Positions 12,675 to 58,403 of a DNA stretch of 64,000 nt are shown here, piece by piece. This stretch comes from a virus. The stretch is from positions 121,051-185,050 of the IMG/VR virus record IMGVR_UViG_3300023212_000371; one strand, 5' to 3'. The notes below the pieces were generated by a model. The model searched no databases, was not told the origin of the DNA, and saw only the letters and a program-made list of their open reading frames with translations. Within the stretch, counting starts at the first letter, position 1, and each line of letters begins with the position of its first letter. A program made the position numbers and the translations under genes.

Positions 12675-13007
12675 ATGTTTAAATCTCAAGATTATATATA
12701 TTTGGGGTATGATTCAAAAACAGATCAATTTCGATACGAAACCACTATCGTGGATGATGATTTTACTGAAATAGTTATCGCTGCCGCCTCCGCTGATGCT
12801 ATAAGAGCCGTTGTACGAGCCGCTGTCTTGATCGATGTTTATTCTCGAAGAAATCTCAACGTAGCTGGTAACTTAGCGTTATTAATGCAATACGTAGAAA
12901 ATAAGTTATGGATGGATATTAAACAGCAAATTGAAGAGTATCAGAAATTTGTTCCCGCATATCCAAAATACCATGACCAAGTGATGGACTATCTAATATT
13001 TATGTGA
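12675..13007 (+). CDS. ~110-aa multicopy family protein, copy 1
   Basis: MF...VDDDFxE-[variable]-LIDVYSRRNLNVAGNL...YHDQVMDYLIFM. Confidence 0.8.
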   Translation: MFKSQDYIYLGYDSKTDQFRYETTIVDDDFTEIVIAAASADAIRAVVRAAVLIDVYSRRNLNVAGNLALLMQYVENKLWMDIKQQIEEYQKFVPAYPKYHDQVMDYLIFM

Positions 13008-13237
13008 GGATCATAAACGCATTTTTCAGCATCTTGATATGCTGGACGATGACAATCTAATTGGCACTGAAAGAAAGTTTTTATTTAAGTGTGAAGATTG
13101 TGAAATGATTGTAAGTGCATCCTTTTCTACTGAAGAAGATTTTATAAAGATTGCTGAAAATTTATTAGATCTTACATGCCAATGTGAAGGAATTATGAAA
13201 GTTTTACGAGATTAATTATTAAAAAATTGAGGTAAAT

Positions 13238-13954
13238 ATGAAAGGCGCCATTTACGTTTCTAAATCAGAGAACGCAAAAATTGCAGGCTCCAATCCCATT
13301 GATTGCACTTATGTTTCTATTAAACGAAGTTGCCCCGACACTTGCTCACTACGAGATAATAAAACGTGTTATGCGGAAAATGGGCATGTGGGTTTTACCG
13401 TTCAAAAGTTAGATCATCGGGCTCGTGGATTGTCAGCATTGCAAGTAGCTAGGGCGGAAGCCAAAGCCATTGATGATGCTTATAAAGGGAAAGAATTTCC
13501 TAAAGGCAGAAATTTGCGCCTTCATGTTTCGGGAGATAGTCGCACCATTAAAGGTACTAGATTGCTTAACAAAGCTATTCAACGCTGGAAACAGCGCGGT
13601 GGCGGTAGTTGTTGGTCCTATACTCATGCTTGGAAACGGGTACCGAGAATAGAATGGAAAGATGTCAGTATCTTGGCTTCCATCGAACGAGTAGAAGAAG
13701 CATTGGAAGCCCGAAAACAAGGATACGCTCCCGCTTTAGTAGTGCCAGAACATATTAGTGATAAGTCCTATAAACTGCCCAATTCAGAAATCAAATGGAT
13801 ACCTTGCGTAGCACAAACAAGAAACATACCATGTTCTGATTGTAAATTATGTTTTAATGCAGATAGGTTGTTTGAGGGTGGATTTGGAATTACATTTGCG
13901 GTGCATGGGGCAAGAAAAAATTCTTTGAAAAGACATTTACAGGTTCTTCAATGA
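13238..13954 (+). CDS. Cys-rich phage protein, possibly Fe-S or Zn binding
   Basis: CPDTC...CYA, RLHVSGD, WSYTHAW, C...CSDCKLC. Confidence 0.6.
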   Translation: MKGAIYVSKSENAKIAGSNPIDCTYVSIKRSCPDTCSLRDNKTCYAENGHVGFTVQKLDHRARGLSALQVARAEAKAIDDAYKGKEFPKGRNLRLHVSGDSRTIKGTRLLNKAIQRWKQRGGGSCWSYTHAWKRVPRIEWKDVSILASIERVEEALEARKQGYAPALVVPEHISDKSYKLPNSEIKWIPCVAQTRNIPCSDCKLCFNADRLFEGGFGITFAVHGARKNSLKRHLQVLQ

Positions 13955-14072
13955 GATGTATATTAATGATGATTATGTGTTCTGGATGTTATACGTTTAG
14001 TTATAGCGAGAACCGATGTGTTCGTTCAGGCTATTATGAAATGAGTGATGGCAAAATGGTTCCTATGTATCG

Positions 14073-14336
14073 ATGCACTTCAACAGGCGATATATGACTA
14101 TCATTCAGTGGCAAGTTTGTATTTCTGATTGGAGTCTGGATGCCAAGCATTATACGAAACCGATCCCAGACACTGGAAAGATTGATCATCGAACTGTTCG
14201 GGCAAAAACATTCGATACAGAACGAGAAGCTATTAAATATGCAGAGAAATATCTAAAAGATCGAGAAGACATTGAATGGTTAGCTAGTTTAGAGGTTAAG
14301 AAATGCACGACGGAAATAATCAAAAAATTGAAATAA
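14073..14336 (+). CDS. Hypothetical protein
   Basis: ORF. Confidence 0.45.
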   Translation: MHFNRRYMTIIQWQVCISDWSLDAKHYTKPIPDTGKIDHRTVRAKTFDTEREAIKYAEKYLKDREDIEWLASLEVKKCTTEIIKKLK

Positions 14337-15685
14337 ATATAAGAACTAAAGAAGAACGAAATAGCCTACGAGAAGATATGTTTTTAGAACGTAACGGCAT
14401 GCGTGGCGCTCCTAAAATGGAACTTGCGCTTAGTAATGCTCTTGATCTTCTTGACGAGAAGGACAAGAAAATCGCAGCTTCGAATTTCAAATTAGCTCAT
14501 CTCGAAAGTGTATTGCGGGCAATTAGTCAGTGGGATATGATCAATCCGCCGAACCCAGATACATTGGCAGACGGCACATGGTTGCGGTCACTCATTGATG
14601 AAGCGTCCAATGTTCTCAGTGATAATGCTGATGAAATCGCCGCTTTGAAAGAAGATCTAGCCGATGATGTTGCATACGAGAGGCGCATTAGTGAGTTGTC
14701 GGATGCTCTTTTGCGAAAAACTTTGAAAGAAAAATGGAATCTTCTTTGGGGCCCGGAACTAGAAGATCTAGGAGCGGTTTTCGATCGTTTGCACGTCCGT
14801 ATCGCTAAGCTCGAAGCTGATCTCAAAACAAAAGCAGATGAGATTGCAGCCCATGATGGCTTGTGTGACGCTATAGGCGCACAACCGTATCTTTTGGCGC
14901 GCATCAAGCAGCTCGAAAGTGTATTGGAAAAGGCGGACGTCATCCGTGATTTAGTGCTCGAAGCTGCACCCTTGACGTGGGCAGTTGGCACGCAGTTCGA
15001 AGAACATGCGTATTGTTGGGAGAAAGAAATCACGAGCGCTAACGAAGCATATGACCAAGTCCGCGCCTTCGAGCGGAAGACTACGGAGGGGCACACAGGG
15101 AATCCTAAGGCGGTCACTAGGAAAGAACCTGAGTCTGTTCCATCACCGTACATGGAACCCTCTCGTCCGGCAGAGGCTCCATCAGAGCCGGGCTCCCTTC
15201 GGGGAAAGAATGTGTGCCCGACATGTAGTCGCACCATCGGCAGTATCGGACACCTTTATAGCGAATGTGAACGGGACTTCGAGCGCGCAGAGGGACAAGA
15301 CGGCGAGATCAAGGCGGGGCAGCAAGAGCCCGAGTCCGTTCCACAAAGATCCCTCTCGCCACGCAATACGCACGATTTCCTCGCACGCATCGTTTGGGAC
15401 AAAAGTGAGCAGGAATGGCAGCTCTACGCTTTTCGAGATAGCGGCGATTACGCATGGTTGTCCCCAGACGAAGATCACCAAGAAATTATATGCATATTTT
15501 CGACCAGCGCAGGACACACTTCGTACAAAAAGTTTTCGGATGCATTGAAGGCGGTGCGTGATTGGATTTTTTCAAGAGACCGATGCGTTGATCATGCAGC
15601 CGCCGGAAAAGTATCATCAGCCGATAATCGTACTAGCATTGCCGTTGAGGGTCATGGAGATGAATGGAAATATACGGGCGATTAA
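14303..15685 (+). CDS. Coiled-coil hypothetical protein in a GC-rich segment
   Basis: Long ORF with heptad-like N-half and duplicated EPESVP motif; start uncertain. Confidence 0.6.
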   Translation: MHDGNNQKIEINIRTKEERNSLREDMFLERNGMRGAPKMELALSNALDLLDEKDKKIAASNFKLAHLESVLRAISQWDMINPPNPDTLADGTWLRSLIDEASNVLSDNADEIAALKEDLADDVAYERRISELSDALLRKTLKEKWNLLWGPELEDLGAVFDRLHVRIAKLEADLKTKADEIAAHDGLCDAIGAQPYLLARIKQLESVLEKADVIRDLVLEAAPLTWAVGTQFEEHAYCWEKEITSANEAYDQVRAFERKTTEGHTGNPKAVTRKEPESVPSPYMEPSRPAEAPSEPGSLRGKNVCPTCSRTIGSIGHLYSECERDFERAEGQDGEIKAGQQEPESVPQRSLSPRNTHDFLARIVWDKSEQEWQLYAFRDSGDYAWLSPDEDHQEIICIFSTSAGHTSYKKFSDALKAVRDWIFSRDRCVDHAAAGKVSSADNRTSIAVEGHGDEWKYTGD

Positions 15686-15707
15686 TTTTACAGAATAAAG
15701 GTGCAAT

Positions 15708-16166
15708 ATGACAGATACATCAATTTGTGAGTATCCATTAAATACCGGTGACGATGGATTTAGCATCGATGGAGTAATGTGTGGCCAACCAGCAACATGG
15801 ATTTCGTGCATTCCATTTTCGAACACGCCCACTTGTGATGCACATAAGTGTCGATGCAGAAAACCTATTGATATACAGTCAAATAGAAATAATACAGAAC
15901 CGGAAAAATCTCAACAGCTTGTCGATGCATTTTCAAAAAAGTATCCCGCGCTAGGCGAATCCATTGCGATTATTCTTCATTTTGCTCGCGAACAAACGAT
16001 TGAGGAATGTGCCAAAATTTGCGACACGAAAGAGGCAGAGGAGTGCAATCTTATTAATTATCATGGATCGGTTGCGCTAGACGCTCAGGGCATAGAGCAT
16101 CGGACAGCATCGAATTGTGCAGGATCTCTTGCTCGTCAAATCCGTGCGCTAAAGAATAGTAAATGA
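15708..16166 (+). CDS. Hypothetical protein
   Basis: ORF with ATGA overlap to next gene. Confidence 0.55.
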   Translation: MTDTSICEYPLNTGDDGFSIDGVMCGQPATWISCIPFSNTPTCDAHKCRCRKPIDIQSNRNNTEPEKSQQLVDAFSKKYPALGESIAIILHFAREQTIEECAKICDTKEAEECNLINYHGSVALDAQGIEHRTASNCAGSLARQIRALKNSK

Positions 16167-16402
16167 TATGGTTTGTTTATATTCTCAAATGCGCCGATAA
16201 TTCTTATTATTGCGGAATTACTAATGACCTTGACAAACGTCTCAAAGCGCATAATAATGGAACTGCCAGCAAATATACACGAGGCAGATTGCCCGTTAAA
16301 TTTGTTAAAATTTGGGCAGTAACAAACAAATCTGCCGCCCTGAAATTAGAAGCCAAAATTAAAAAGTTGCCCAAGAATAAAAAACTTTCTTTTATCATCT
16401 GA
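16163..16402 (+). CDS. Small GIY-YIG nuclease (UPF0213-like)
   Basis: WFVYILKCADNSYYCGITNDLDKRLKAHN...SKYTRGR. Confidence 0.85.
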   Translation: MIWFVYILKCADNSYYCGITNDLDKRLKAHNNGTASKYTRGRLPVKFVKIWAVTNKSAALKLEAKIKKLPKNKKLSFII

Positions 16403-16441
16403 TATAGAGAACCTATCAACACAACCAAAAGGAAAATTAAC

Positions 16442-17565: not shown

Positions 17566-17570
17566 AAATC

Positions 17571-17888: not shown

Positions 17889-17968
17889 CAAGTGGTGAAG
17901 TGTGGATATGAAAGGTGTGGGTCTAGTACTAGTCCCCGGTAGTTTTAGTTAGAAGAACATCGTCAATT

Positions 17969-17988
17969 ATTGCTCAGTTCGCTGAGAC
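17969..17988. repeat. Dispersed 20-bp hairpin, copy 1
   Basis: ATTGCTCAG-TTCG-CTGAGAC. Confidence 0.8.
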
Positions 17989-18063: not shown

Positions 18064-18402
18064 ATGTTTCGATCTTGCAGTATTACATCCAGATCTAACA
18101 TACCTGTAATTAGTCAAGAGAGACCGAATTATGAGTATGAAGTTACTATCGTGGATGATGATTTTTTTGAAACCAAAACTGTTTTTGCCAACGTCGCTAC
18201 TGAGGCAGCCGCCATCGCATTGATCGATATTTACTCTCAAAAAAATCTCAACGTAGCTGGCAATCTAGCGTTGTTGATGCGATATGTAGAACATAATTTT
18301 CCAGCGTTAGATATTAACTTGCAAATCAGGGCATACCAAAATAATATTCCTGAATATTCAAAATACCATGATCAAGTAATGGGTTATCTGGTGTTTTTAT
18401 GA
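18064..18402 (+). CDS. ~110-aa multicopy family protein, copy 2
   Basis: Conserved DDDF, LIDIYSQKNLNVAGNL, YHDQVMGYLVFL. Confidence 0.8.
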   Translation: MFRSCSITSRSNIPVISQERPNYEYEVTIVDDDFFETKTVFANVATEAAAIALIDIYSQKNLNVAGNLALLMRYVEHNFPALDINLQIRAYQNNIPEYSKYHDQVMGYLVFL

Positions 18403-18426
18403 AAGTTATTAGATATTAGTAAAAAA

Positions 18427-18756
18427 ATGTTTCGATCTTTTAATTATAAATACTTTGGATATAACGGTGAAAAACTTCATCGATATCAAGTTATCATTGT
18501 GGATGATGATTTTATTGAAACTGCCACCGTGTTTGCCGTCGCTCCCGGAAGCATCGCCACTGAAGCCGCTGCCCTGATCGATATTTATTCTCGAAGAAAT
18601 CTTAATGTGGCTAGTAACTTGGCACTGTTGATGCAATATACAGAACATGTATGTCCATGGATAGATATTAAGTGGCAAATCGAGTGTTATCAAAAAGAAA
18701 TTCCTGAATACCAGAAATACCACGATCAAATAATGGATTATTTAATATTTTTGTGA
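18427..18756 (+). CDS. ~110-aa multicopy family protein, copy 3
   Basis: Conserved DDDF, LIDIYSRRNLNVASNL, YHDQIMDYLIFL. Confidence 0.8.
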   Translation: MFRSFNYKYFGYNGEKLHRYQVIIVDDDFIETATVFAVAPGSIATEAAALIDIYSRRNLNVASNLALLMQYTEHVCPWIDIKWQIECYQKEIPEYQKYHDQIMDYLIFL

Positions 18757-20777: not shown

Positions 20778-22658
20778 ATGAAATTTTATCATCTTCTTTT
20801 CTTCTTCCTCACCAGTTGCGGAGCCCTCACCCTCTTCTCTCCCGTTCCTGCTCCCATCCAGCCTCGCCCTATCCAATATCTTTCGGGCTCCTCTTTTCAT
20901 CCCGAAATTACCAATGGGCTTTCTAACGAAGACCGCGGCACTTACTATCACTTTGATGAAGGGATTCAGTGGCTTCCCACTGATGTTATGCTTTCATTGA
21001 AACGTCCCTCTTCTAACGTGTTTAAGGTAATGGATGAATTACTGTTAGCTAAGCCAGAACGTTTTGGTCTTCTCCCCAATTACATTGATGTGCTTTATCC
21101 TAACCAACTTAATCCACAAGCGGACATCCCTTTAGGAATTACTATTTCCACCAACACCGATTATGTTCCTATGTCCGGAATATCATGCAGCTCATGTCAT
21201 ACTACCATTATTTCTAATTCCGAAGGACATTTCTTCTTAGTTGATGGGGCTCCTTCTCGTTTTGCGGTAGATCGTTTCGTGGCGGAAATGGTCAAATCTT
21301 TGGCGGCTACTTTGGCTAATCCAGTAGAATTTGAAGCCTTTTATGAGCGCTTTAAAGCTCGTCTTCATTTTGGAATGGGGGAAAGTTATGATCGATTAAT
21401 ATTGCTCAGTTCGCTGAGACTCAAAGATCATCCTGACCTTAAGGCTCTAGCTCCAGTAGTAGAAAAAGCCTTTAATACCAATGATTGTCAAGAATTGCAA
21501 ACCAAACTTTCTACTATTTCTAATCCCATTACCTATCGTTTTCAGCGTTTTACAACCCTTGATTCTGCCTATCCAACTTATGCTATGCTTGGCAATCAAC
21601 AGGGAATGTATTTCTATTTGGTCAAGCGTTTCATCTTCTTGTTGGAACAAACGAAATATGGAACGGCTGACAAAGATTCTTTGGTGGCAGAAAGTGGATT
21701 GGGGCGAGCTAACCCATGGAGTGTAGCAAAGAAACTCATCTCCGATAAATATTTCCATCTCAAAAACGCAGTCCATGTAGAAGGTGGGCCAGTAAGCACT
21801 CCCTATATGTGGGATTATGATCGCCAAACTTGGGTCTTTTGGAGCGGAACCACTAACTCTATGCTGGAACGCAATTTGGCTCAATGCACTACTCTTTTGA
21901 CCGATTTTAATGAGAAAACTTACGAGACCACCTGCTCCGTCAAGAAACTTCAGGACATTTCTTATTATGCTCAAAAAATTCAAGCTCCCAAGTGGCCCGA
22001 AGCAATTTTAGGCAGCATCGATACCGATAAAGCTAATAAGGGCAAAATCATCTTTCAGGATAAATGTTTAAATTGCCATGATCCCAAAGCTTCTTATACT
22101 CTCACCGGAACCGCTTCTTATACCTATATAAGTGTTGGAACTGATCCTAACTATATTCAAGGACAACTGGAATTAATTAATAAGAAAGATATTTTTACTG
22201 GTATGATTGCACCATGGATTAATCATGTAAAGGAAGTAGCCGCCCTTCAAATAGAAGGTTTAATTTATATAGATTTGTTAAATTATGAGAATGGAAGATT
22301 GCCAGCTACATGGCGCAGTCCAGAGTTGAATCGAATCGAAGCGAAACCACTTGCTGGTGTCTGGGCTACTGCACCTTATCTTCATAATGGAAGCGTGCCC
22401 ACTATTTGGGATTTATTGCAACCAGTGGATCAGCGCCCCCATCGATTTCATATTGGCGGGTTTGTTTATGATACCAAAAAGCTTGGATATATTGGAGATG
22501 AGAATTTGCCGGATGGATTTGAGTTCGAGGTAAATTGTTTGCATTGTCAAGGGAATAGCAATCAAGGACATGAATTTGGTACCGAGCTAAGTTCGGAAGA
22601 TAAATGGAACTTGATTGAATTTCTCAAGTCCTATAATAATGAGACAACATTTAAATGA
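20778..22658 (+). CDS. RoxA-like di-heme c-type cytochrome, probable lipoprotein
   Basis: Two CxxCH (CSSCH, CLNCH); KPLAGVWATAPYLHNGSVPT; GNSNQGHEFG; LTSC lipobox-like signal. Confidence 0.8.
   Translation: MKFYHLLFFFLTSCGALTLFSPVPAPIQPRPIQYLSGSSFHPEITNGLSNEDRGTYYHFDEGIQWLPTDVMLSLKRPSSNVFKVMDELLLAKPERFGLLPNYIDVLYPNQLNPQADIPLGITISTNTDYVPMSGISCSSCHTTIISNSEGHFFLVDGAPSRFAVDRFVAEMVKSLAATLANPVEFEAFYERFKARLHFGMGESYDRLILLSSLRLKDHPDLKALAPVVEKAFNTNDCQELQTKLSTISNPITYRFQRFTTLDSAYPTYAMLGNQQGMYFYLVKRFIFLLEQTKYGTADKDSLVAESGLGRANPWSVAKKLISDKYFHLKNAVHVEGGPVSTPYMWDYDRQTWVFWSGTTNSMLERNLAQCTTLLTDFNEKTYETTCSVKKLQDISYYAQKIQAPKWPEAILGSIDTDKANKGKIIFQDKCLNCHDPKASYTLTGTASYTYISVGTDPNYIQGQLELINKKDIFTGMIAPWINHVKEVAALQIEGLIYIDLLNYENGRLPATWRSPELNRIEAKPLAGVWATAPYLHNGSVPTIWDLLQPVDQRPHRFHIGGFVYDTKKLGYIGDENLPDGFEFEVNCLHCQGNSNQGHEFGTELSSEDKWNLIEFLKSYNNETTFK
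21401..21420. repeat. Dispersed 20-bp hairpin, copy 2 (inside the cytochrome CDS)
   Basis: Identical to copy 1. Confidence 0.8.
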
Positions 22659-23538: not shown

Positions 23539-23817
23539 TTGGAAGGAAGATTCATGAAATTTATCGAGTTAAAGTTCGAACGACATCCACTGGGCATAGA
23601 CGGTGTTCAAGCACGCGTGACGTTTGCCAATGGCTATGGCGCCTCCGTCATTAAGTACCCGTATTCATATGGTGCCGAAGAAGGGTTGTATGAACTCGCG
23701 GTTTTCGGCAAGGACGGACAACTTACCTACGACACGCCGATCACTGATGACGTGATTGGGTATCTCACGCCGGAAGAAGTTGAGGAACTTCTCGATCGAA
23801 TCGAGGACTTATCATGA
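23539..23817 (+). CDS. Hypothetical phage protein (locally GC-rich)
   Basis: FANGYGASVI...SYG...GLYELAV; true start probably ATG 23554. Confidence 0.6.
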   Translation: MEGRFMKFIELKFERHPLGIDGVQARVTFANGYGASVIKYPYSYGAEEGLYELAVFGKDGQLTYDTPITDDVIGYLTPEEVEELLDRIEDLS

Positions 23818-24851
23818 AATCTATTCATTATTTAGTGCTTGGCTTATTGTTGCTGATTGGGTGTCCCGGAGAAGTTGTTAATCCTGATGGCGGTAGCTTG
23901 GGCGATGCTATGGATGTAGTAGATGCGGGAATGGAAGCAGATGCATCTGGAGATAGTCAGGTGAAAGATGTGATAAGTGAAGGGGACGGAGGATTGAATT
24001 TTGATTTCTGGTCTTGTGGCAACGAGCCCATTTCATATCACGATGGCCCGGTCATGGTTGAACCAATTAAAATTTTTGTATTATGGTATGGCAATTGGAT
24101 TAATAACAATAAAACGGTGCCAATTGTCGAACAATTTATCATTGACCTTAATGGAAGTCCGTGGTTTAGCACCACTTCTACCTACTATGAAACTCTTCCT
24201 ATAGATATGATTGCTCCTGCTCAGGGCGTTATGGGACGTGCCTATGCTACCAACAATTTGATTTTAACCAAAAGTGTTTTTATTAGCAGCGCCACTCATG
24301 GAAACAATCTTTCAATGTCAGATGTGTTCGCTATTGTTACAGATGCAATTAATGACCAATCTGTTCCAAATGATCCTACAGCGGCGTATTTAGTTTTGAC
24401 TAGTTCTGATATTAACCAATATGATGGATTTGAGAGCGCCTGTCAAGCATATTGTGGTTTTCATAACCATAAAATTTACAACGCTGTAGATGTCAAATTT
24501 GCATGGATTGGAGATCCTGCTCGTTGCTTAGATGTATGTTCAGCAAAATCCAAATATGACCTTTATGGTATTTCTCATTCGCCGAACTTTGATTGGAGTG
24601 CAGACGCTATGGTTTCTGTGATTGCGCATGAACTGACAGAAATAATTACAGACTATGCTTACGATACAGCTCCAGCATGGACAGATAGATATGGATGGGA
24701 AAATGCAGATAAAGGCGCATGGACATTTGGACAAGTCTATAAAACTGATAGCGGATCAGTTGCTAATGTTCATTTAGGTGATCGAGATTATCTACTTCAA
24801 CAGAATTGGACATTGTTTGATGGCGGGCAAGGATGTGCATTGCATCCATAG
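23814..24851 (+). CDS. Phosphate-induced protein 1 (Phi-1/EXORDIUM-like) domain lipoprotein
   Basis: LLLIGC lipobox; YHDGPVM...VLWYG; YCGFH; IAHELTEIITD; ENADK; YLLQQNW. Confidence 0.7.
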   Translation: MKSIHYLVLGLLLLIGCPGEVVNPDGGSLGDAMDVVDAGMEADASGDSQVKDVISEGDGGLNFDFWSCGNEPISYHDGPVMVEPIKIFVLWYGNWINNNKTVPIVEQFIIDLNGSPWFSTTSTYYETLPIDMIAPAQGVMGRAYATNNLILTKSVFISSATHGNNLSMSDVFAIVTDAINDQSVPNDPTAAYLVLTSSDINQYDGFESACQAYCGFHNHKIYNAVDVKFAWIGDPARCLDVCSAKSKYDLYGISHSPNFDWSADAMVSVIAHELTEIITDYAYDTAPAWTDRYGWENADKGAWTFGQVYKTDSGSVANVHLGDRDYLLQQNWTLFDGGQGCALHP

Positions 24852-26065: not shown

Positions 26066-26089
26066 GGGAGTTTAGTTCATTTAGAAGAA

Positions 26090-26250
26090 CGCGACAATAG
26101 CATTGTCGATGTGCTGGGAGCGTAGCCCAGAACTTCCACTAACTCGCGCTTATCTCACTTGTTGAGGTAAGTAGATCGAGTAAAAATTATGGCAATTGAT
26201 TGCTCGGTACGCCGAGACCGCCACTAGTAGAACACAGACTGGTGGCACTG
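26090..26250. ncRNA. Candidate structured RNA (chain of hairpins)
   Basis: CGACAAT/ATTGTCG, CTGGG/CCCAG, CTTATCTCA/TGAGGTAAG, CTCGG/CCGAG, GCCACTAGT/ACTGGTGGC; no family recognised. Confidence 0.3.
26199..26218. repeat. Dispersed 20-bp hairpin, copy 3
   Basis: ATTGCTCGG-TACG-CCGAGAC (compensatory change). Confidence 0.8.
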
Positions 26251-26719: not shown

Positions 26720-27055
26720 ATGTTTAAATCCTATAGCTGGAAATATCTGGATTATGACTCAAAAACAGATCAATGGCGATACGAAATCACTATCATGGAT
26801 GTTGATTTTACTGAACCCGTTGCCGCCTCGGCCATCACAGCTGACTGGACCATCAACGACATCGCCGACGCCCTGATCGATATTTACTCTCGAAGAAATC
26901 TCAATGTGGCTGGCAATTTAGTATTGTTTATGCAATATGTAGAAAATAAATGGCCATGGCGAGATATTAAACGGCAAATTAAATGGTATCAGAAATACGT
27001 TCCCGGATATCAAAAATATCATGATCAAGTAATGGACTATCTAATATTTATGTGA
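26720..27055 (+). CDS. ~110-aa multicopy family protein, copy 4
   Basis: Family motifs. Confidence 0.8.
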   Translation: MFKSYSWKYLDYDSKTDQWRYEITIMDVDFTEPVAASAITADWTINDIADALIDIYSRRNLNVAGNLVLFMQYVENKWPWRDIKRQIKWYQKYVPGYQKYHDQVMDYLIFM

Positions 27056-27067: not shown

Positions 27068-27415
27068 ATGTTTAGATTTTATGATTGGAAATGTTTTGAA
27101 TCTATTTATGAAACAGAAAAATCGCAATATGAAATTACTATCGTGGATGATGATTTTATTGAAATCGAAATGATCAGCGTGGGCTTAAGAGGCAATGGTT
27201 CTCTCACCGATATCATCGCCACTTTTCACGCTATAATCAATACTTATTCTCGAAGAAATCTCAATGTAGCTGGAAACCTAGTTTTGTTGATGCAGTTTAT
27301 AGAACATAAATGGCCATCTATGGATATTAAATGGCAAATTGAGATTTGCCAGCAATTCATTTCAGAGTATCGGGAATACCATGATCAAGTAATGGATTAT
27401 TTAATATTTTGGTGA
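27068..27415 (+). CDS. ~110-aa multicopy family protein, copy 5
   Basis: Family motifs; longest variable segment (23 codons). Confidence 0.8.
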   Translation: MFRFYDWKCFESIYETEKSQYEITIVDDDFIEIEMISVGLRGNGSLTDIIATFHAIINTYSRRNLNVAGNLVLLMQFIEHKWPSMDIKWQIEICQQFISEYREYHDQVMDYLIFW

Positions 27416-27425: not shown

Positions 27426-27459
27426 AAAGATGTTTAAATCCTATAGCTGGAAATATCTG
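27426..27459 (+). repeat. 34-nt exact duplicate of 26716-26749 (5' stub of a family copy)
   Basis: AAAGATGTTTAAATCCTATAGCTGGAAATATCTG at both sites. Confidence 0.85.
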
Positions 27460-27493
27460 AGTTATACTTAAAAAACGTTCAGCCTCTATACAA

Positions 27494-35375: not shown

Positions 35376-37274
35376 TTAGACACAGTCATAACCAGTTATA
35401 GTTACTGATTCAAGGGTTCCAGAAGCGCCCGCGGCTGCAAATTCTAAGGTCATGGCAGTTGCAGCGGAACCGACAATATTAAGACCGCTGATATTAAGGC
35501 TGCGAACGTCATTAGAGATAGCCGATAAATACTGGCTCCATAGAATAGTTCCGGTTCCTGTTACGCCATCACGCAAATTAACTAAAGTAGCAGCGTTGGT
35601 AGCAGTACCCGCAAAGCTAGCAGAAACGCTAGTGCAGACATGTCTAACACCTGCCGCTCCTGCTGCCTTGGTTGCAGTCGCTTGAGTAGCCGCAGATGGT
35701 GTGCTAACTACTGTCCAGTTACCAGGTAACACAGTAAGTTCTGCGCCAGTGGAACTGAAAGCTGATAAATTAGCCGCTGCACCCGATCGAGCCCGATCCA
35801 TATTGGTGCCATTGAATAACGCTGGATTTTCTGCCACGATATTAACCGCCGGCATAGCATCGGCAGTAGCAGAACGTTCAATGTAGTAGAGTTGTGATGC
35901 CGGATCATAAAGAGCTTCTTCTTCAATGCCGATACCATCTGGTAAGAAACCGTTAGTGCCGGGGCCCAGTACCGAATGTTGATCCCATTCAACTGTCGAG
36001 TTTTGAGCGTGTGAAAATTGAGTTGCAATTTGGAGTGGAACAGTTGTAGAACCAACAGTATAGGTTGCTGATACATAGTTGGTTTCTGGATTGGATCCAA
36101 CTCGATCAAGAATAACTTTCTGTCCGGGAATTAGGGTAGTTGGCGCGCTATTAAGCGTAAGAGTGGTGCTATTAGCAGCCAAAGGATTATTGGAAATAGT
36201 TCCGCTTCCCTTACCTTTAGCATTAACGTTACGGGCTCTATCGAATTGGAAACCAGAAAGCACGCTTCCATTTGCTAATGGGTTGCCATTCCATTCGTAT
36301 TCAGCCGCAATTGCAGTACCGTTGCCAGAAGCACCATCAAGTTCGCCACCTGCGGAACGTTCTAATTCGGCTAAGTTGGCATTTGTGTTAAACAAATAAG
36401 TCATTGATGCTGACAAACCAGTCAAAGCAATGTTATTACCTGCACCAGCATCGCGAGCAACGTTATAGTGAAACCAGCTAAGTGTTTCGTTGCCCGTATG
36501 GTTAGCTTTAAAGACGGCGGTAATTGAAGTGCCGCTTGGAACTGCACTGACGAAAATGTTTTCTGGATTGGTTCCACCCACCGCGACATAATCACCAATT
36601 TTTATGTTTGTCGTGGATGTAACAGTAATAGTTTGGGGCGAGTTGCCGCCGGTGATAGCGCCTTGATTGATAGTTGTGCTAAAAGGTATTGCAAATTGAG
36701 AGCTACCAGCGGTAAGACCCGAGGCTGGCTGACCGTCAAACGCCGTTGAACGTTGGCGATCATAGCCCCCTGAGTTAATACCGTTGAGATTAGAACACGG
36801 ATTAAGAATAGCTGTTGGGCCCGATACATCTAATTGAAATGCCGTGCCACTAGGGACTTGGTTATCAGCATTACGACCTTGCGTTGTGCCAACAACATTT
36901 ACACCGTCTCCAATCTTGATTGGAATTGGGTTATTATTAGCAAGAACCGCATTACCTTGCGATAATTGAACGGGAATAGGATTATTTGCTGCTAATACTG
37001 AACCACTTTGGGATAATTGACTTGGAATGGGATTGCTAGCAGATAACACTGCGTTGCTTTGAGATAGCTGAGCCGGAATAGGATTATTAGCTGCTAAAAC
37101 TGCGTTGCTTTGGGACAATTGAGCTGGAAGTGGATTGGTCGCTGTAATATCACCACCATCCGTATCCAAAGATCCAATACGAACCTTGATTACTGGAATT
37201 TTATACGCACCAATGTCCTCGGTTGCGATATTATCACCACCAGCTCCTGGATTAATCCTTGTATTATCACTCAT
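35376..37274 (-). CDS. Gly/Ala/Thr/Asn-rich putative virion structural or fibre protein
   Basis: Composition; N-terminal tandem repeats; internal duplication. Confidence 0.6.
   Translation of the reverse strand: MSDNTRINPGAGGDNIATEDIGAYKIPVIKVRIGSLDTDGGDITATNPLPAQLSQSNAVLAANNPIPAQLSQSNAVLSASNPIPSQLSQSGSVLAANNPIPVQLSQGNAVLANNNPIPIKIGDGVNVVGTTQGRNADNQVPSGTAFQLDVSGPTAILNPCSNLNGINSGGYDRQRSTAFDGQPASGLTAGSSQFAIPFSTTINQGAITGGNSPQTITVTSTTNIKIGDYVAVGGTNPENIFVSAVPSGTSITAVFKANHTGNETLSWFHYNVARDAGAGNNIALTGLSASMTYLFNTNANLAELERSAGGELDGASGNGTAIAAEYEWNGNPLANGSVLSGFQFDRARNVNAKGKGSGTISNNPLAANSTTLTLNSAPTTLIPGQKVILDRVGSNPETNYVSATYTVGSTTVPLQIATQFSHAQNSTVEWDQHSVLGPGTNGFLPDGIGIEEEALYDPASQLYYIERSATADAMPAVNIVAENPALFNGTNMDRARSGAAANLSAFSSTGAELTVLPGNWTVVSTPSAATQATATKAAGAAGVRHVCTSVSASFAGTATNAATLVNLRDGVTGTGTILWSQYLSAISNDVRSLNISGLNIVGSAATAMTLEFAAAGASGTLESVTITGYDCV
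36921..37140 (-). repeat. Four 17-aa (51-bp) tandem repeats NPIPxQLSQxxxVLxAx
   Basis: Read from translation of 35376-37274. Confidence 0.8.
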
Positions 37275-43267: not shown

Positions 43268-43600
43268 ATGTTTAAATTCTTTGAATGGAAATATCTAGGT
43301 TATGATCCAAAAACAGATCAGTATCGATCCGAAATCACTATCGTGGATGATGATTTTACCGAAACCCTCGTCGCCGCCTCCCCAATCGGCGGCGAAGCCG
43401 TTGTTCCACCCGCCACCACCGCCTTAATCGATATTTATTCTCGAAGAAATCTCAATGTGGCTGGTAATCTCGTGTTGTTGATGCAAGATATAGAAAGTAA
43501 ATGGCTAGACATTAAACTACAAATCGAATATTATCAAAAATATATTCCTGAATATTCAAAATATCACGATCAAGTAATGGGTTATCTAATATTCACATGA
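43268..43600 (+). CDS. ~110-aa multicopy family protein, copy 6
   Basis: Family motifs; most C-rich variable segment (43364-43423). Confidence 0.8.
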   Translation: MFKFFEWKYLGYDPKTDQYRSEITIVDDDFTETLVAASPIGGEAVVPPATTALIDIYSRRNLNVAGNLVLLMQDIESKWLDIKLQIEYYQKYIPEYSKYHDQVMGYLIFT

Positions 43601-44112
43601 GTCTGCAAGATAAAAAACGCCTCAAGCGGATTAAAAATGACGTCATTGAGCGAGATGGAATGATTTGTTGCTACTGCGATACTGTATTGACACTCGAAAC
43701 ATTAACACTTGATCATATCGTTCCTGATAGCAAACGAGGAACTTTCAATTCCACTAATTTGACAGTTTCTTGTAAAACCTGCAATAATAATCGCGGGAAC
43801 AAGCCATTCTTTGAATATTGTAAAAAATTCAAATTTTCCGAAGATAAAATTAATAAGTATAAGCGACTGTATTTTAATAACCTTAAAATCAAAGTATTGA
43901 ATATTGCTAAGGAAGAATGTTTAAAGAGTGATTGTGCCATTCCTAAAAAATTGATTAATAAAGCTTGCCAGATTTTGAAAATCAAACCTATCTCGTTTGC
44001 AAATTATGAGAAGGAATACCCATTGAATATTGATTTTTCCACTTCATGTCGGAGACGGGAAATTAAATTTTGTTTTGAGCAATTAATAAGGATTATAGAA
44101 GTGGATACGTAG
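43597..44112 (+). CDS. HNH endonuclease (McrA-like)
   Basis: CCYC...TLDHIVPDSKRG...NLTVSCKTCNNNRG. Confidence 0.85.
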   Translation: MSLQDKKRLKRIKNDVIERDGMICCYCDTVLTLETLTLDHIVPDSKRGTFNSTNLTVSCKTCNNNRGNKPFFEYCKKFKFSEDKINKYKRLYFNNLKIKVLNIAKEECLKSDCAIPKKLINKACQILKIKPISFANYEKEYPLNIDFSTSCRRREIKFCFEQLIRIIEVDT

Positions 44113-53266: not shown

Positions 53267-53342
53267 GAAATCTGTCAAAGATCTGGGATATAGGGACAAG
53301 TAAAAGAAAAAATGAACTCTAACCCTCTAACCAAAGGAACTC

Positions 53343-53825: not shown

Positions 53826-53835
53826 AATAGTCAAT

Positions 53836-53855
53836 ATTGCTCAGTGCGCTGAGAC
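53836..53855. repeat. Dispersed 20-bp hairpin, copy 5
   Basis: ATTGCTCAG-TGCG-CTGAGAC. Confidence 0.8.
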
Positions 53856-53870
53856 GAAATAAGAGATTTA

Positions 53871-55315: not shown

Positions 55316-56472
55316 AAAAAGAAAGGAAAAAGTTAAGCAATGAAGAGCTTTTAGAAAATATTAAACTTTATCTAAAAGTAAATAAGCCGGGCTCGTCTTG
55401 TTTAGGTGTTGAAAGACGAGCGGTTTATATAATTTACGCCACAATTAAATGTGAAAACGGCCACATTTGGACAACAAAATTTTCTCATATAAAATCGGGG
55501 CATTGGTGCGCAGCATGTTTGGGTATTGCAAAGAAAAGTCTAACAGATGTTCAAATATTTCTAGATCATAATTATAGTGGTTATGTTTGTATAAGTGATG
55601 ATTATTTTAATACACATATCGACCTCAACATAAAGTGCAATAAAGGGCATTCATTCAAAATTAGTTATAAACATTTAGTCCAAAATTCAGTTGCAGGTAA
55701 ATGTCCAATTTGTCACCATAAAAGAAGAAGACGATTGAGTATTGGGCATATCCAGAACTATCTAGACACTAATCATTGTGGTTCCAAATGCATAAAAATG
55801 TATCACAAAATCAATAATATAAAAACATATCTGTTAATAGATTGTGGTAATGGACACCAATTTGGAATTAGATCGGATGCTCTATTTTTAGGGACATGGT
55901 GTCAAAAATGTAGAAAGATTAAAAGCAAAAACGAAATTATTGCGATAATAACTGAAAGATGTTCAGAGTCCAAGTTGTTGGATGAAAATTACGTTAATGA
56001 TAGATACCTGATGTCAATTTACTGTGGTAATGGTCATCAATGGAAAATTAATGCTAATAATTTAAAAGATGGACATTGGTGTCCTAAGTGTAGTGAAAGT
56101 TTTGGCGAAACTATAACTCGTAAGTATTTTGAAGAAATTTTTGGATTTCAGTTTCCAAAGGTAAGACCAAATTGGCTCAAAAATCCTATCACTGGATATA
56201 ATTTAGAACTTGATGGATATTGTGCTGAATTAAATATAGCCTTCGAATACCAAGGAGATCAGCATTTTAAAAAAATACCCTTCTTTAAAATGACTGATGA
56301 GAGACTTATCTTGTCTCAGCAAAGAGATCAATTTAAAAGGAATTTATGTCAAAAAATGAACATATCTCTCATTGAGGTGCCACAATTAACTTATTATTTT
56401 AGAAAAGACGATCTATATAGGCTTATAATTGATGCTTGTTTGAAGTTGAATATTTCGCCAAAGAATACATAA
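55312..56472 (+). CDS. Zn-ribbon repeat protein with C-terminal endonuclease (putative homing endonuclease)
   Basis: Repeated C.NGH.W...WC..C; LELDGY...IAFEYQGDQH. Confidence 0.75.
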   Translation: MKKERKKLSNEELLENIKLYLKVNKPGSSCLGVERRAVYIIYATIKCENGHIWTTKFSHIKSGHWCAACLGIAKKSLTDVQIFLDHNYSGYVCISDDYFNTHIDLNIKCNKGHSFKISYKHLVQNSVAGKCPICHHKRRRRLSIGHIQNYLDTNHCGSKCIKMYHKINNIKTYLLIDCGNGHQFGIRSDALFLGTWCQKCRKIKSKNEIIAIITERCSESKLLDENYVNDRYLMSIYCGNGHQWKINANNLKDGHWCPKCSESFGETITRKYFEEIFGFQFPKVRPNWLKNPITGYNLELDGYCAELNIAFEYQGDQHFKKIPFFKMTDERLILSQQRDQFKRNLCQKMNISLIEVPQLTYYFRKDDLYRLIIDACLKLNISPKNT

Positions 56473-56491
56473 TTAAATTTGTTGTAGAAAT

Positions 56492-56821
56492 TTGAAGGAG
56501 CACGTAATGAAGTATTTGTTAATGTTATGTATGCTATTAAGTTTGACAAGTTGTGTGGTAGTTGGCCCCGCTGATGTTTACACAGATGAGTGTGTAGTTT
56601 TTCATGATGATCTTGGAGAGCGAGAAGTTTGTGGAGTTCGTTATTATCGAACTCCCAAAGGCGATCTCTATTATTATGATGAGCGCTTCTCTATTTGGGT
56701 CGGCCCGAGAGGGTTTTATCGGGGCGGGATTTATTATTTTGGAATCCATCCGGGCTATCGCGAATATTACGGCCCTAACTGGTATTATCCTCACGGCTAT
56801 TTCCGCTACAGAATTCGATGA
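56492..56821 (+). CDS. Putative lipoprotein with Tyr/Gly/Pro-rich tail
   Basis: LLSLTSC lipobox. Confidence 0.55.
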   Translation: MKEHVMKYLLMLCMLLSLTSCVVVGPADVYTDECVVFHDDLGEREVCGVRYYRTPKGDLYYYDERFSIWVGPRGFYRGGIYYFGIHPGYREYYGPNWYYPHGYFRYRIR

Positions 56822-57114
56822 TCTTGATCTATATTCTTGCCATTTTTGGACTTAATTTTGCTATTCGTCAAACAAGCGGGCCTTATGGAAGCATTGCTTG
56901 GCTTCGCAATAAGTTAATGTCCAATAGGCATTTAGGCGTCCTTTTTTACCAACTCTTAGAATGCTCGTTTTGTAGTGGGTTTTGGTGTGGAATTGTGATA
57001 TGCCTGCTCCAAGGAGAAATACATATTAATCAACTTATTGTGTGGGGTTTGGCAGGCGCAACTATCAGTCTTATCTTAGATGCAACATTGACCAAATTGT
57101 GGTACGAAAAATGA
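56818..57114 (+). CDS. Membrane protein (DUF1360-like)
   Basis: LLECSFCSGFW plus TM segments. Confidence 0.6.
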   Translation: MILIYILAIFGLNFAIRQTSGPYGSIAWLRNKLMSNRHLGVLFYQLLECSFCSGFWCGIVICLLQGEIHINQLIVWGLAGATISLILDATLTKLWYEK

Positions 57115-57719
57115 TCCAACAGTTTTGGGATAGGTGTTCTCTTTGTCCGGTATGTCATAACCGCCGAGTTCTTAGGGCTTCTGTTGGCCCGGATCGTTTC
57201 TTTCGAGACACTTCTTTTCAAAAAGAAGATAATGTTTTTCGGATCAAAACCTATTATAAATGGAAAGATTTGAGATATTGTATTCATTTTGATATTGATT
57301 GTTTGACCAACACATTTACCGCTTCCTTTGAGGATCAATCAGATCAGTCAATGGATGCCGCTATGAGTTTGGAAGATGAGAAATTATTCAAGAGAGTAGA
57401 TTATGCTCGACCTTATTTTTGGATTGATGGAAATTGTCATCATTGCGAAAGAACAGCCATTCATACTACCGATATCATTCTTGATATGAGAACTATGCAA
57501 CTAATACATAATGATATTGGAATCGAAAGAGAACTTATTTATGTTATGAATCAATATGAAATAATTTTGCGCCCGCTTCAAAAGGAAATGGATATTGGCA
57601 AGCTAATAGACGGTGGTATAAAAATGAGCCAATACTTAACATGTCCTTTAGTAGATATCGATTTTTCTAATCCCGAACAAGCATTAAAGCGAGTAGAAAC
57701 TTTATTAGTGTTTGGATGA
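57111..57719 (+). CDS. Hypothetical protein
   Basis: ORF with CPVC and CHHC pairs; ATGA overlap. Confidence 0.6.
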   Translation: MIQQFWDRCSLCPVCHNRRVLRASVGPDRFFRDTSFQKEDNVFRIKTYYKWKDLRYCIHFDIDCLTNTFTASFEDQSDQSMDAAMSLEDEKLFKRVDYARPYFWIDGNCHHCERTAIHTTDIILDMRTMQLIHNDIGIERELIYVMNQYEIILRPLQKEMDIGKLIDGGIKMSQYLTCPLVDIDFSNPEQALKRVETLLVFG

Positions 57720-57722
57720 GAT

Positions 57723-58055
57723 ATGTTTCGATCCTTTGACTGGAAATATCTGGATTATGATCCAACAACAAATCAATCTCGATACGAAATTATTTTTGTA
57801 GATGATGATTTTATCGAGACCACAATCGCTGCCTCCATTGCAGACTATGTCGTTGTCACCGTTTCCATCGCCCTAATCGATATTTACTCTCGAAGAAATC
57901 TCAATGTAGCTGGTAATCTAGTTTTGCTGATGCAATATATAGAAAATAAACGGTCATGGGCAGATATTAAATGGCAAATCGAGGAATACCAAAAATGCAT
58001 TCCAGAATATCAAAAATACCATGATCAAGTAATGGACTATCTAGTATTCATGTGA
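57723..58055 (+). CDS. ~110-aa multicopy family protein, copy 7
   Basis: Family motifs. Confidence 0.8.
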   Translation: MFRSFDWKYLDYDPTTNQSRYEIIFVDDDFIETTIAASIADYVVVTVSIALIDIYSRRNLNVAGNLVLLMQYIENKRSWADIKWQIEEYQKCIPEYQKYHDQVMDYLVFM

Positions 58056-58067
58056 GAAAGAAGTAAA

Positions 58068-58403
58068 ATGTTTCAATCTTTTGATTGGAGATATCTGGGT
58101 TATAATCTAAAAACAAATCAATCTCAATACGAAACTACTTTCGTAGATGATGATTTTATCGAAACAGTCGTCGTTTCCTTCATCAGCACCATCAATGACG
58201 GATCTTCCCTCGCCGCTGTTCTGATTGATATTTACTCTCAAAGAAATCTCAATGTAGCGGGCAATCTTGTGTTGTTAATGCAATATATAGAAAATAAATG
58301 GCCATGGATAGATATTAAGTGGCAAATCGAGCGTTATCAAAAAGAAGTTCCTGAATACCAGAAATACCACGATCAAGTAATGGATTATCTAATATTCATG
58401 TAG
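58068..58403 (+). CDS. ~110-aa multicopy family protein, copy 8
   Basis: Family motifs. Confidence 0.8.
   Translation: MFQSFDWRYLGYNLKTNQSQYETTFVDDDFIETVVVSFISTINDGSSLAAVLIDIYSQRNLNVAGNLVLLMQYIENKWPWIDIKWQIERYQKEVPEYQKYHDQVMDYLIFM

What the first reader, a model, noticed from the sequence alone, without database searches (positions are those of the whole stretch)
12675..58403. Eight dispersed paralogs of an unknown ~110-aa protein, each with a hypervariable C-rich internal segment: candidate diversification system
Seen: copies at 12675, 18064, 18427, 26720, 27068, 43268, 57723 and 58068 share VDDDFxE and LIDIYSRRNLNVAGNL...YHDQVMDYLIF, conserved even in DNA. Between these anchors each has a different segment of 19, 16, 18, 19, 23, 20, 18 and 19 codons. 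That segment departs from the local AT-rich codon usage: C-ending codons are 15/20 in copy 6 (acc ctc gtc gcc gcc tcc cca atc ggc ggc gaa gcc gtt gtt cca ccc gcc acc acc gcc), 14/19 in copy 4 and 12/19 in copy 8, while the flank reads gat gat gat ttt. Known: diversity-generating retroelements (DGRs) turn AAC/AAT template codons into NNC/NNT by adenine-specific mutagenesis and can act on remote targets. Inference: these genes are multi-target products of a DGR-like or gene-conversion process that varies one loop or helix on a fixed scaffold, for example a host-interaction or anti-defence specificity element. Against a classical DGR: the segment is internal, varies in length, and no RT or template repeat is in this window.
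Basis: partly seen in the sequence, partly recalled or inferred. Interest (0 to 1): 0.9.

Follow-up and report, generated by a model that had tools for sequence, protein, structure and literature searches.

The report
GC-rich variable loop in phage paralogs
A huge-phage genome carries at least 13 copies of an unnamed ~110-residue protein whose one variable loop is encoded by a decayed, GC-rich, alanine-codon (GCC) repeat tract; this looks like ordinary repeat slippage plus point mutation, not a retroelement-driven diversification system.

Summary
All eight ORFs exist at the stated coordinates. The segment lengths (19, 16, 18, 19, 23, 20, 18, 19 codons) and C-ending counts (15/20, 14/19, 12/19) are exact. 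The 198.6-kb viral contig, about 46% complete, has 13 copies plus a 5' stub.

Third-position C in the segment is 141/234, against 46 expected from the genome's codon usage. The flanks have 12%.

The DGR reading fails:
- There is no reverse transcriptase, template-like copy or adenine-biased repeat pair.
- Segment lengths differ.
- All three codon positions depart from G-C-C with the same spectrum (retained 53/49/60%, transitions 29/31/26%; p=0.28).
- C3 loss tracks each copy's flank divergence (rho -0.74).

The family is large (914 clusters at 50% identity) and matches no Pfam or PHROG family. GC-rich segments occur in one clade only. There, relatives carry a perfect (GTC GCG)x~10 array, (GCC)4 and ACC/GCC runs.

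AlphaFold places the segment in the strand3-helix1 connection. A 33-residue version has a low-confidence loop.

Best reading: an in-frame GC-rich simple-repeat tract in a permissive loop, changing by slippage and decaying by AT-biased mutation, on flanks that recombine among copies.

Still open: why the tract stays GC-rich (up to 82% inside 21% GC genes), and why one close pair has unrelated segments.

The parts
12675..13007 (+). family copy 1 (110 aa)
   Evidence: ORF; alignments
12771..12827 (+). variable GC-rich segment of copy 1, 19 codons
   Evidence: codon alignment columns 37-59
18064..18402 (+). family copy 2 (112 aa)
18172..18219 (+). variable segment of copy 2, 16 codons
18427..18756 (+). 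family copy 3 (109 aa), in tandem with copy 2
18520..18573 (+). variable segment of copy 3, 18 codons
26720..27055 (+). family copy 4 (111 aa)
26816..26872 (+). variable segment of copy 4, 19 codons, 14 C-ending
27068..27415 (+). family copy 5 (115 aa), the most diverged copy with the most decayed segment
27164..27232 (+). variable segment of copy 5, 23 codons
27430..27471 (+). 5' stub of a further copy (MFKSYSWKYLSYT, then a stop). It follows the same purine-rich spacer as copy 5 and closely resembles the start of copy 4.
   Evidence: sequence; nhmmer hit at genome 148480-148543
43268..43600 (+). family copy 6 (110 aa). Its stop overlaps the start of an HNH endonuclease gene.
43364..43423 (+). 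variable segment of copy 6, 20 codons, 15 C-ending
57723..58055 (+). family copy 7 (110 aa); the protein modelled in the first AlphaFold run
57819..57872 (+). variable segment of copy 7, 18 codons (residues 33-50: strand 3, turn, first half of helix 1)
58068..58403 (+). family copy 8 (111 aa), in tandem with copy 7
58164..58220 (+). variable segment of copy 8, 19 codons, 12 C-ending

Best explanation
The genes encode a small soluble alpha/beta protein: a beta-hairpin, a third strand and a bundle of 4-5 helices. It belongs to a large, unnamed, multi-copy family of huge phages. In one clade of that family, the connection between strand 3 and helix 1 acquired an in-frame, GC-rich simple-sequence tract. 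In this genome's lineage the tract was essentially a run of GCC (alanine) codons. Such tracts change length by replication slippage in whole codons, and they are eroded by the genome's ordinary AT-biased point mutation. The 13 copies here are old paralogs. Each carries an independently shortened, lengthened and decayed version of that tract, which gives the A > V, T, I > S, D, G composition and the surviving C at third positions. The flanks stay similar through purifying selection and patchy recombination among copies. Shown: the composition, the mutation-spectrum pattern, the clade restriction, live repeats in relatives, the structural position, and the absence of DGR parts in the DNA held. 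Inferred: slippage as the process, the GCC-run ancestor, and tolerance of the loop. Not known: what the protein does. My guess is that the loop is a partner-binding surface, so that copies differ in specificity.
For: 1. Departure from G-C-C is the same at all three codon positions: retained 53/49/60%, transition 29/31/26%, GC>TA 11/12/9%, GC>CG 6/8.5/5% (chi-square p=0.28). Codon frequencies are close to the product of the per-position frequencies, including GAC, GGC, TCC, CCC and AAC. That fits point-mutational erosion of a GCC run. Amino-acid selection would leave position 3 at genome usage. A DGR would leave position 3 fixed.
2. The fraction of C at position 3 falls as a copy's flanks diverge from the family consensus (Spearman -0.74, p=0.0036, n=13).
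3. Relatives in the same clade still carry live repeats: L036 has a GGTCGC hexamer, 9.8 copies at 96% match; L021 has (GCC)4 within a GCC/CGC tract; L004 has ACC and GCC runs. Across ten relatives, internal word repeats exceed codon-shuffled controls (p about 0.015).
4. The dominant alanine codon differs by lineage and runs against the local flank preference: GCC in G000, G001, L004 and L021; GCG/GCA in L019. This is expected if one unit was amplified.
5. GC-rich segments are confined to one clade (SH-aLRT 98). Within it they sit on short terminal branches, and copies on long branches have ordinary composition.
6. The segment lies in the strand3-helix1 connection. In a 33-residue version the middle 20 residues have pLDDT 55-66, against 91-98 elsewhere. 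Across the family this stretch ranges from about 10 to 33 residues.
7. Among the G000 paralogs the segments are no more diverged than flank synonymous sites allow: flank pS 0.29-0.7, segment identity 0.5-0.7.
Against: 1. In G000 itself there is no detectable tandem array and no excess of internal repeats (p 0.1-0.6), so slippage here is inferred from relatives and from length variation.
2. Simple decay cannot explain why the tract is still 60-82% GC, with GC3 up to 0.96, in lineages whose flanks are 21-41% GC and saturated at synonymous sites relative to each other. It needs continued re-expansion or selection.
3. L037 and L038 have flanks 89.8% identical (pS 0.116), yet their segments of 72 and 96 nt do not align better than shuffles. 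That is faster than slippage of such complex sequence would be expected to act. Mosaic flank histories in that trio (Fisher p=2e-5) offer recombination as a way out.
4. Low-complexity tracts in AT-rich genomes are usually AT-rich, so a GC-rich one is unusual.
Confidence: 0.5

Rival explanations
1. Ancient allelic loop cassettes shuffled by recombination. The segments are old, selected specificity variants of a binding loop. The conserved flanks act as recombination handles, as in the mosaic hypervariable regions of phage adhesins. Flanks therefore look younger than the loops, and no special mutational process is needed.
For: Flank histories are mosaic. In L037/L038/L040 the informative sites switch partner halfway along the 3' flank (Fisher p=2e-5). 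In G000 the similarity matrices of three flank blocks are uncorrelated (Mantel r 0.14-0.23, p 0.11-0.26) and nearest neighbours differ by block, for example a 93% identical 3' block between two copies whose other blocks are about 80% identical. Homology between copies and between phages stops at the ORF ends. L037 and L038 have near-identical flanks but unrelated segments.
Against: It does not explain the GC-rich third positions, the G-C-C phase with equal departure at all three positions, the live tandem repeats in relatives, or the decline of C3 with flank divergence. No segment is shared between any two copies: no shared words beyond composition.
Confidence: 0.2
2. The composition is selected at the nucleotide or translation level. 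Examples are a conserved cluster of codons that are rare in an AT-rich host and slow the ribosome between strand 3 and helix 1, or codons matched to phage-supplied tRNAs such as the tRNA-Ala(AGC) encoded in the window.
For: GC-rich synonymous positions persist in deeply diverged lineages with very AT-rich flanks. The window encodes an unusual tRNA-Ala with anticodon AGC, and the contig has a deaminase-like ORF. The segment is 80% T/A/P/S/L/I/V/R residues with C or T at position 3. From my own knowledge, that is the pattern read by inosine-34 tRNAs.
Against: In G000 the bias is specific to C: G-ending codons, equally rare in this genome, are only 5%. In L019 and the L036 group the preferred third base is G or mixed, so no single decoding rule fits. 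There is no RNA-structure signal (mean z +0.26 over 13 copies). C3 erodes with divergence instead of being held.
Confidence: 0.1
3. A dedicated targeted diversification mechanism acts on the segment. It could be a DGR whose RT and template lie in the unsequenced half of the genome, or an undescribed process such as site-specific cleavage with biased or error-prone resynthesis.
For: The compositional boundaries are sharp and coincide with the conserved motifs. Codons are stop-free (86% NNY in G000). One close pair has unrelated segments. HNH endonuclease genes abut copies in two phages. The contig is only 46% complete.
Against: There is no RT in about 1 Mb of five family-bearing records, one of them 95% complete. 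There is no template-like copy. Lengths differ. Position 3 varies like positions 1 and 2, and adenine is simply the rarest base, not the variable one. Strong in-frame G-N-S periodicity argues against frame-blind synthesis. A 12.3-kb locus including a GC-rich segment is 100% identical on two contigs from two differently labelled sources, an ENA assembly and a Logan run; their independence was not checked. The fold is neither C-type lectin nor Ig.
Confidence: 0.1

Closest known systems
Diversity-generating retroelement variable regions (prototype: Bordetella phage BPP-1 mtd; PMC3240598, PMC5703328)
   Same: A short hypervariable stretch on a conserved protein scaffold in a phage. There are several potential targets per genome. 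The codon make-up (NNY) cannot give stop codons.
   Different: No RT, no template repeat and no adenine-specific pattern. There is no downstream hairpin or GC-rich homing motif. The segment is internal instead of C-terminal, its length varies from 12 to 23 codons, and the third position varies as much as the first two. The fold is not C-type lectin.
Simple-sequence-repeat (slipped-strand) variable loci, including in-frame codon repeats (general knowledge; e.g. PMC7911514, PMC13317227 for SSR phase variation)
   Same: Length changes occur in whole repeat units. A short unit is dominant (GCC; GTCGCG in a relative). Live arrays exist in some members and decayed ones in others.
   Different: In this genome the arrays are fossil, with the longest pure run (GCC)3. 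The changes are in frame, so there is no on/off switching. The tract is GC-rich in an AT-rich genome, and it sits at one conserved structural site in a multi-copy family.
Polyalanine tracts encoded by imperfect GCN runs in eukaryotic transcription factors (own knowledge, not checked here)
   Same: Alanine-rich stretches are encoded by one dominant GCN codon. They expand and contract in frame and are interrupted by point mutation.
   Different: A phage protein with much stronger decay. The tract lies within or beside predicted strand and helix, not in a disordered linker.
Hypervariable loops between conserved motifs in T4-type gp38 adhesins (own knowledge, not checked here)
   Same: Conserved flanks recombine while the intervening loops differ completely between alleles.
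   Different: No link to tail fibres or host recognition is shown. This protein is a small stand-alone one present in 13 or more copies. The compositional anomaly has no counterpart there.

Membership tests
Diversity-generating retroelement (DGR) target | A reverse transcriptase gene in the same genome | tested here: not met
   RVT_1 (PF00078) gave no match in the 198.6-kb contig or in four other records carrying the family, one of them 95% complete. Caveat: the window's contig is about 46% complete.
Diversity-generating retroelement (DGR) target | A template repeat: a second, usually non-coding copy of the variable region and its 3' flank | tested here: not met
   A nucleotide profile search found only the 13 genes and a 5' stub. 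A self-BLAST screen for repeat pairs with at least 75% of mismatches at A or T of one copy found only an IS-type hairpin.
Diversity-generating retroelement (DGR) target | Variation restricted to positions that are adenine in the template; other positions, such as codon position 3 of AAC, stay fixed | tested here: not met
   All three codon positions depart from G-C-C with the same spectrum (p=0.28). Position 3 is C 60, T 26, A 9, G 5%.
Diversity-generating retroelement (DGR) target | A variable region of fixed length at the 3' end of the gene, followed by a GC-rich homing motif and a hairpin (PMC3240598) | tested here: not met
   The segment is internal (codons 33-55 of about 110) and 12-23 codons long. 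The sequence after it is AT-rich coding sequence. No conserved inverted repeat lies downstream.
Diversity-generating retroelement (DGR) target | A C-type lectin or Ig-like fold displaying the variable residues | tested here: not met
   The AlphaFold model (pLDDT 94) has three strands plus a helical bundle. No significant match was found in PDB, AFDB clusters, BFVD or the ESM Atlas; best Z is 5.4.
Simple-sequence-repeat (slippage) variable tract | A tandem array of a short unit at the variable site | tested here: inconclusive
   Not met in the window: TRF finds nothing in the segments and the longest pure run is (GCC)3. Met in clade relatives: the L036 hexamer with 9.8 copies, L021 (GCC)4, and L004 ACC/GCC runs.
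Simple-sequence-repeat (slippage) variable tract | Copies differ in length by whole units | tested here: met
   12-23 codons among the 13 copies, all in frame; 13-33 codons across the GC-rich clade.
Simple-sequence-repeat (slippage) variable tract | Internal repetition beyond what composition gives | tested here: inconclusive
   G000 segments: p 0.1-0.6. Ten relatives: p 0.015-0.04 for 5- to 7-mers.
Simple-sequence-repeat (slippage) variable tract | Length polymorphism within a population | not testable with these tools
   No sequencing run was listed for the window.
Recombining mosaic hypervariable region | Conserved flanks with discordant histories around a non-homologous core | tested here: met
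   Site patterns switch along the L037/L038/L040 flank (p=2e-5). Flank blocks in G000 have uncorrelated similarity matrices. Segments share no words beyond composition.

The most novel reading that the evidence does not exclude
The strand3-helix1 site of this phage protein family is the target of an undescribed, site-directed process that repeatedly rewrites a 40-100-nt stretch with GC-rich, in-frame, stop-free sequence. This would explain the islands of up to 82% GC inside genes of 21% GC, the sharp boundaries at conserved motifs, and a pair of copies with 90% identical flanks but unrelated segments. The family would then be a phage-encoded library of loop variants made by a mechanism other than a DGR.
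Probability: 0.12. Interest if true: 0.85.

Novelty: new variant of a known kind. Interest (0 to 1): 0.45.

Why it matters
It removes a tempting false positive: NNC-rich variable segments on a conserved scaffold are not in themselves evidence for a DGR. It also gives a simple test, which is to compare the departure spectrum at the three codon positions.

It defines a large, uncurated family of small huge-phage proteins:
- at least 914 clusters at 50% identity;
- up to 13-15 copies per genome;
- homology that stops at the ORF ends;
- a single variable loop, which is a sensible place to look for specificity in whatever these proteins bind.

The extreme and persistent GC-richness of the loop-coding tract in very AT-rich genes is unexplained. 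It is a compact, testable problem in mutation bias versus selection.

Tried and rejected
- **Family searches.** Pfam and PHROGs searches on G000 copies and ten distant members gave no family.
- **Fold searches.** PDB Foldseek, VIA-align wide, AFDB clusters, BFVD and the ESM Atlas by shape and by features gave only weak partial matches. These were beta-beta-beta-alpha of RNase H or dsRBD type, best Z 5.4, TM up to 0.53. I do not assign a fold.
- **RNA or ssDNA hairpin over the segment.** Rejected: mean z +0.26.
- **Antisense or overlapping gene.** Antisense ORFs exist over copies 2 and 3 only, so this was rejected.
- **Transmembrane helix.** Rejected on sequence: several copies have D, R, N, G or P inside the segment.
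- **Genome-wide property of alanine-rich stretches.** Rejected: RYC-dense windows are nearly exclusive to the family. Other GC-rich islands exist but are of a different kind, for example a generally GC-richer gene at 14303-15685.
- **Capture of the segment from a bacterial gene.** Two peptide-level degenerate patterns found nothing in GTDB genomes. This is a weak test.
- **Read-level variation.** No run was listed.
- **The 327-kb contig that carries the same proteins.** It was not retrievable.
- **Metagenome scans.** Scans with the close-clade alignment found nothing, and two alignments were too diverse to scan.
- **Excess of adjacent identical codons in G000.** None found (p=0.42).

Full report
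**What is there**

The window is bases 121051-185050 of a 198,652-bp IMG/VR viral contig that CheckV rates about 46% complete. It looks like part of a huge phage:
- almost all genes lie on one strand;
- it encodes tRNAs and a tmRNA;
- it encodes EF-Ts, an AlkB-type oxygenase, HNH endonucleases and a metallophosphatase.

They align end to end with 33 invariant residues. A profile search of the six-frame translation and a nucleotide profile search both find 13 full copies on the contig, all on the + strand. They also find a 14-codon 5' stub just after copy 5. Two further copies are on record on a 327-kb contig that also carries these proteins. I could not retrieve that contig.

In a codon alignment the variable stretch is columns 37-59.

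| Measure | Segment | Flanks |
|---|---|---|
| Third-position C | 141/234 (60%); 46 expected from genome codon usage for the same residues | 12% |
| Third-position T | 26% | 40% |
| GCC : GCT | 46 : 14 | 1 : 12 |
| GAC : GAT | 10 : 2 | 11 : 90 |

A six-frame scan of the whole contig for windows dense in GCC/ACC/GTC/ATC puts 6 of the top 8 windows in this family. The anomaly is therefore specific to the family and not a habit of the genome.

**Why it is not a DGR**

- RVT_1 has no match in the contig or in four other viral records that carry the family, about 1 Mb in all and one record 95% complete.
- No non-coding copy resembles a template.
- A self-comparison screen for repeat pairs whose mismatches fall on adenines of one partner found only an IS200/IS605-type end hairpin.
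- The segment is internal and 12-23 codons long. AT-rich coding sequence follows it, with no conserved inverted repeat. A DGR target needs a homing motif and a hairpin just downstream of a fixed-length variable repeat (PMC3240598).

The most telling point is the pattern of variation, measured as departure from the phase G-C-C:

| Class | Position 1 | Position 2 | Position 3 |
|---|---|---|---|
| Retained | 53% | 49% | 60% |
| Transition | 29% | 31% | 26% |
| GC>TA | 11% | 12% | 9% |
| GC>CG | 6% | 8.5% | 5% |

The three positions are homogeneous (p=0.28). A DGR acting on AAC/AAT codons would hold position 3 fixed and randomise positions 1 and 2.

**What the pattern points to**

An equal, transition-dominated, GC-to-AT spectrum at all three positions is what ordinary point mutation would do to a run of GCC codons. 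It also explains the residue ranking:
- Ala (GCC), 66;
- Val (GTC), Thr (ACC) and Ile (ATC), which are the transition neighbours, 34, 26 and 25;
- Ser, Asp, Gly and Pro, which are the transversion neighbours, 19, 12, 9 and 7.

Codon counts are close to the product of the per-position frequencies, minor codons included. Copies whose flanks have diverged more from the family consensus have lost more third-position C (Spearman -0.74, p=0.0036).

Among the G000 paralogs the flanks are old, with pS 0.29-0.7 and a mean of 0.52. The segments are 0.5-0.7 identical at best alignment, which is no more diverged than neutral sites would be. No two copies share words beyond what composition gives. In this genome the segments therefore look like independently eroded relics, not freshly made variants.

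**The wider family**

A profile search of 1.84 billion representative proteins finds 914 clusters at E<=1e-3, 356 of them at E<=1e-10. All are about 85-190 residues long, most 90-125, and none matches a Pfam or PHROG family. A 406-kb phage contig has 12 copies in tandem arrays. Across the family the same stretch is the part that varies in length and sequence, from about 10 to 33 residues.

I recovered DNA for 52 distinct members.
- GC-rich segments are confined to one well-supported clade (SH-aLRT 98).
- Outside that clade the segment is short, often ends in W-E-A, and has ordinary composition.
- Inside it the contrast can be extreme: segment GC 0.82 against flank GC 0.21 (L021), 0.77 against 0.22 (L038), and GC3 0.96 against 0.49 (L036).

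Some members of the clade hold live repeats:
- L036 carries a GGTCGC hexamer, 9.8 copies at 96% match, encoding (Val-Ala)n;
- L021 has (GCC)4;
- L004 has ACC and GCC runs.

Ten relatives together show more internal repetition than codon-shuffled controls (p about 0.015). The dominant alanine codon differs by lineage and runs against the flank's own preference: GCC in four lineages, GCG/GCA in L019. All groups keep a strong in-frame G-N-(C/G) periodicity. Within the clade, GC-rich segments sit on short terminal branches, and copies on long branches have lost the bias. Together this reads as the life cycle of an in-frame simple-sequence tract: seeded once at a tolerant site, re-expanded in some lineages and eroded in others.

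**Structure**

AlphaFold2 on a 19-sequence alignment gives pLDDT 94 and pTM 0.85. The model has strands at 2-13, 18-27 and 31-38, and helices at 43-57, 62-76 and 82-109. The segment (residues 33-50 of copy 7) covers strand 3, the turn and the first half of helix 1.

For L038, whose segment is 33 residues, an 89-sequence alignment gives the same fold. The coil at residues 41-52 falls in two ten-residue blocks (41-60) with mean pLDDT 55 and 66, against 91-98 elsewhere. No fold search gave a convincing relative, so I do not name a fold or a function. The invariant D-x-D-F and N-L motifs and the single variable loop suggest a binding module whose copies differ in specificity. That is a guess.

**What does not fit neatly**

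First, pure decay cannot keep tracts at 60-82% GC in lineages whose flanks are saturated relative to each other. Either re-expansion of GC-rich units keeps refreshing them, or something selects for the composition.

Second, L037 and L038, from one metagenome, have flanks 89.8% identical (pS 0.116). Yet their segments of 72 and 96 nt align no better than shuffles. That could mean very fast turnover. However, the same trio shows a clear switch of relationships halfway along the 3' flank (Fisher p=2e-5). In G000 the three flank blocks have uncorrelated similarity matrices, with different nearest neighbours in each block. Recombination among copies is therefore active and can make flanks look younger than the loops.

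Third, homology between copies, and between G000 and the 118-kb relative G001, begins within a few bases of the ATG and ends at the stop, with unrelated neighbours on both sides. The genes behave as cassettes. How they move is unknown.

**Other checks**

- A 12.3-kb locus that includes a GC-rich segment is 100% identical on two contigs from two differently labelled sources, an ENA assembly and a Logan run. I did not check whether they are independent samples. If they are, this argues against rapid ongoing mutation in that lineage.
- There is no RNA-structure signal over the segment.
- Two peptide-level searches for a bacterial source of a segment found nothing.
- No sequencing run was listed for the window, so the decisive read-level test could not be done.

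**Verdict**

The DGR-like mechanism does not.

The most likely account is an in-frame GC-rich simple-repeat tract in a permissive loop, changing by slippage, decaying by AT-biased mutation, and sitting between recombining flanks (confidence about 0.5). The rivals are:
- recombination-shuffled ancient loop alleles (0.2);
- nucleotide- or translation-level selection (0.1);
- a dedicated targeted mechanism, known or new (0.1).

Earlier scan notes had already called these genes cassette-like. My comparisons agree with that.

Noticed in passing
window 26066-26139: tRNA-Ala with anticodon AGC (A34). From my own knowledge this is unusual for bacteria and phages, and if A34 were deaminated to inosine it would read GCU, GCC and GCA. 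The contig also encodes tRNA-Arg(ACG) just past the window end, at genome 184987-185061.
   Followed up: partly
genome 97932-98360 (outside the window; L026:1495-1923): A 142-aa ORF with H-A-E ... P-C-x-x-C motifs. It matches the cytidine/deoxycytidylate deaminase family just under the cut-off (23.8 vs 25 bits). It could be a dCMP deaminase or a tRNA adenosine deaminase; this was not resolved.
   Followed up: partly
genome 23279-23637 (outside the window): A tmRNA gene with tag peptide ANDNNAFVQMPLAA on the phage contig (ARAGORN).
   Followed up: no
window 27430-27471: A stranded 5' stub of a family copy (13 codons, then TAA), preceded by the same purine-rich spacer that separates copies 4 and 5. 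It suggests a partly deleted tandem duplication.
   Followed up: partly
window 43597-44112: An HNH endonuclease gene whose ATG overlaps the stop of family copy 6. In an unrelated phage contig (L021) an HNH_3 gene overlaps the start of its family copy. This may be a homing-endonuclease association, or coincidence.
   Followed up: no
window 1034-1088 and genome 73375-73429: A 55-nt repeat, GTCAAT followed by a hairpin with compensatory stem changes. It is the IS200/IS605-type element end noted elsewhere in this scan, and it was the only 'A-biased' repeat pair in the DGR screen.
   Followed up: partly
L001/L002 (G001) versus the whole G000 contig: Between the 118-kb relative and this contig, the only nucleotide similarity in two 6-kb loci is the family ORF itself (73-79% identity from about 5 nt before the ATG to the stop). 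The genes are either far better conserved than their surroundings or move between phages.
   Followed up: partly
window 14303-15685: A 460-aa ORF that is GC-richer than its surroundings over most of its length (GC 0.45-0.65, GC3 up to 0.70), with a Pro/Glu/Ser-rich stretch. It may be a recent acquisition.
   Followed up: partly
window 36957-37136: A tandem repeat with a 51-nt period, 3.5 copies, 72% match (TRF score 185).
   Followed up: no
window 20778-22658 and 23814-24851: A RoxA-like di-haem cytochrome c protein and a Phi_1 (phosphate-induced protein 1) homologue on a phage contig. A Phi_1 gene also lies near the family copy in the related contig L019.
   Followed up: no
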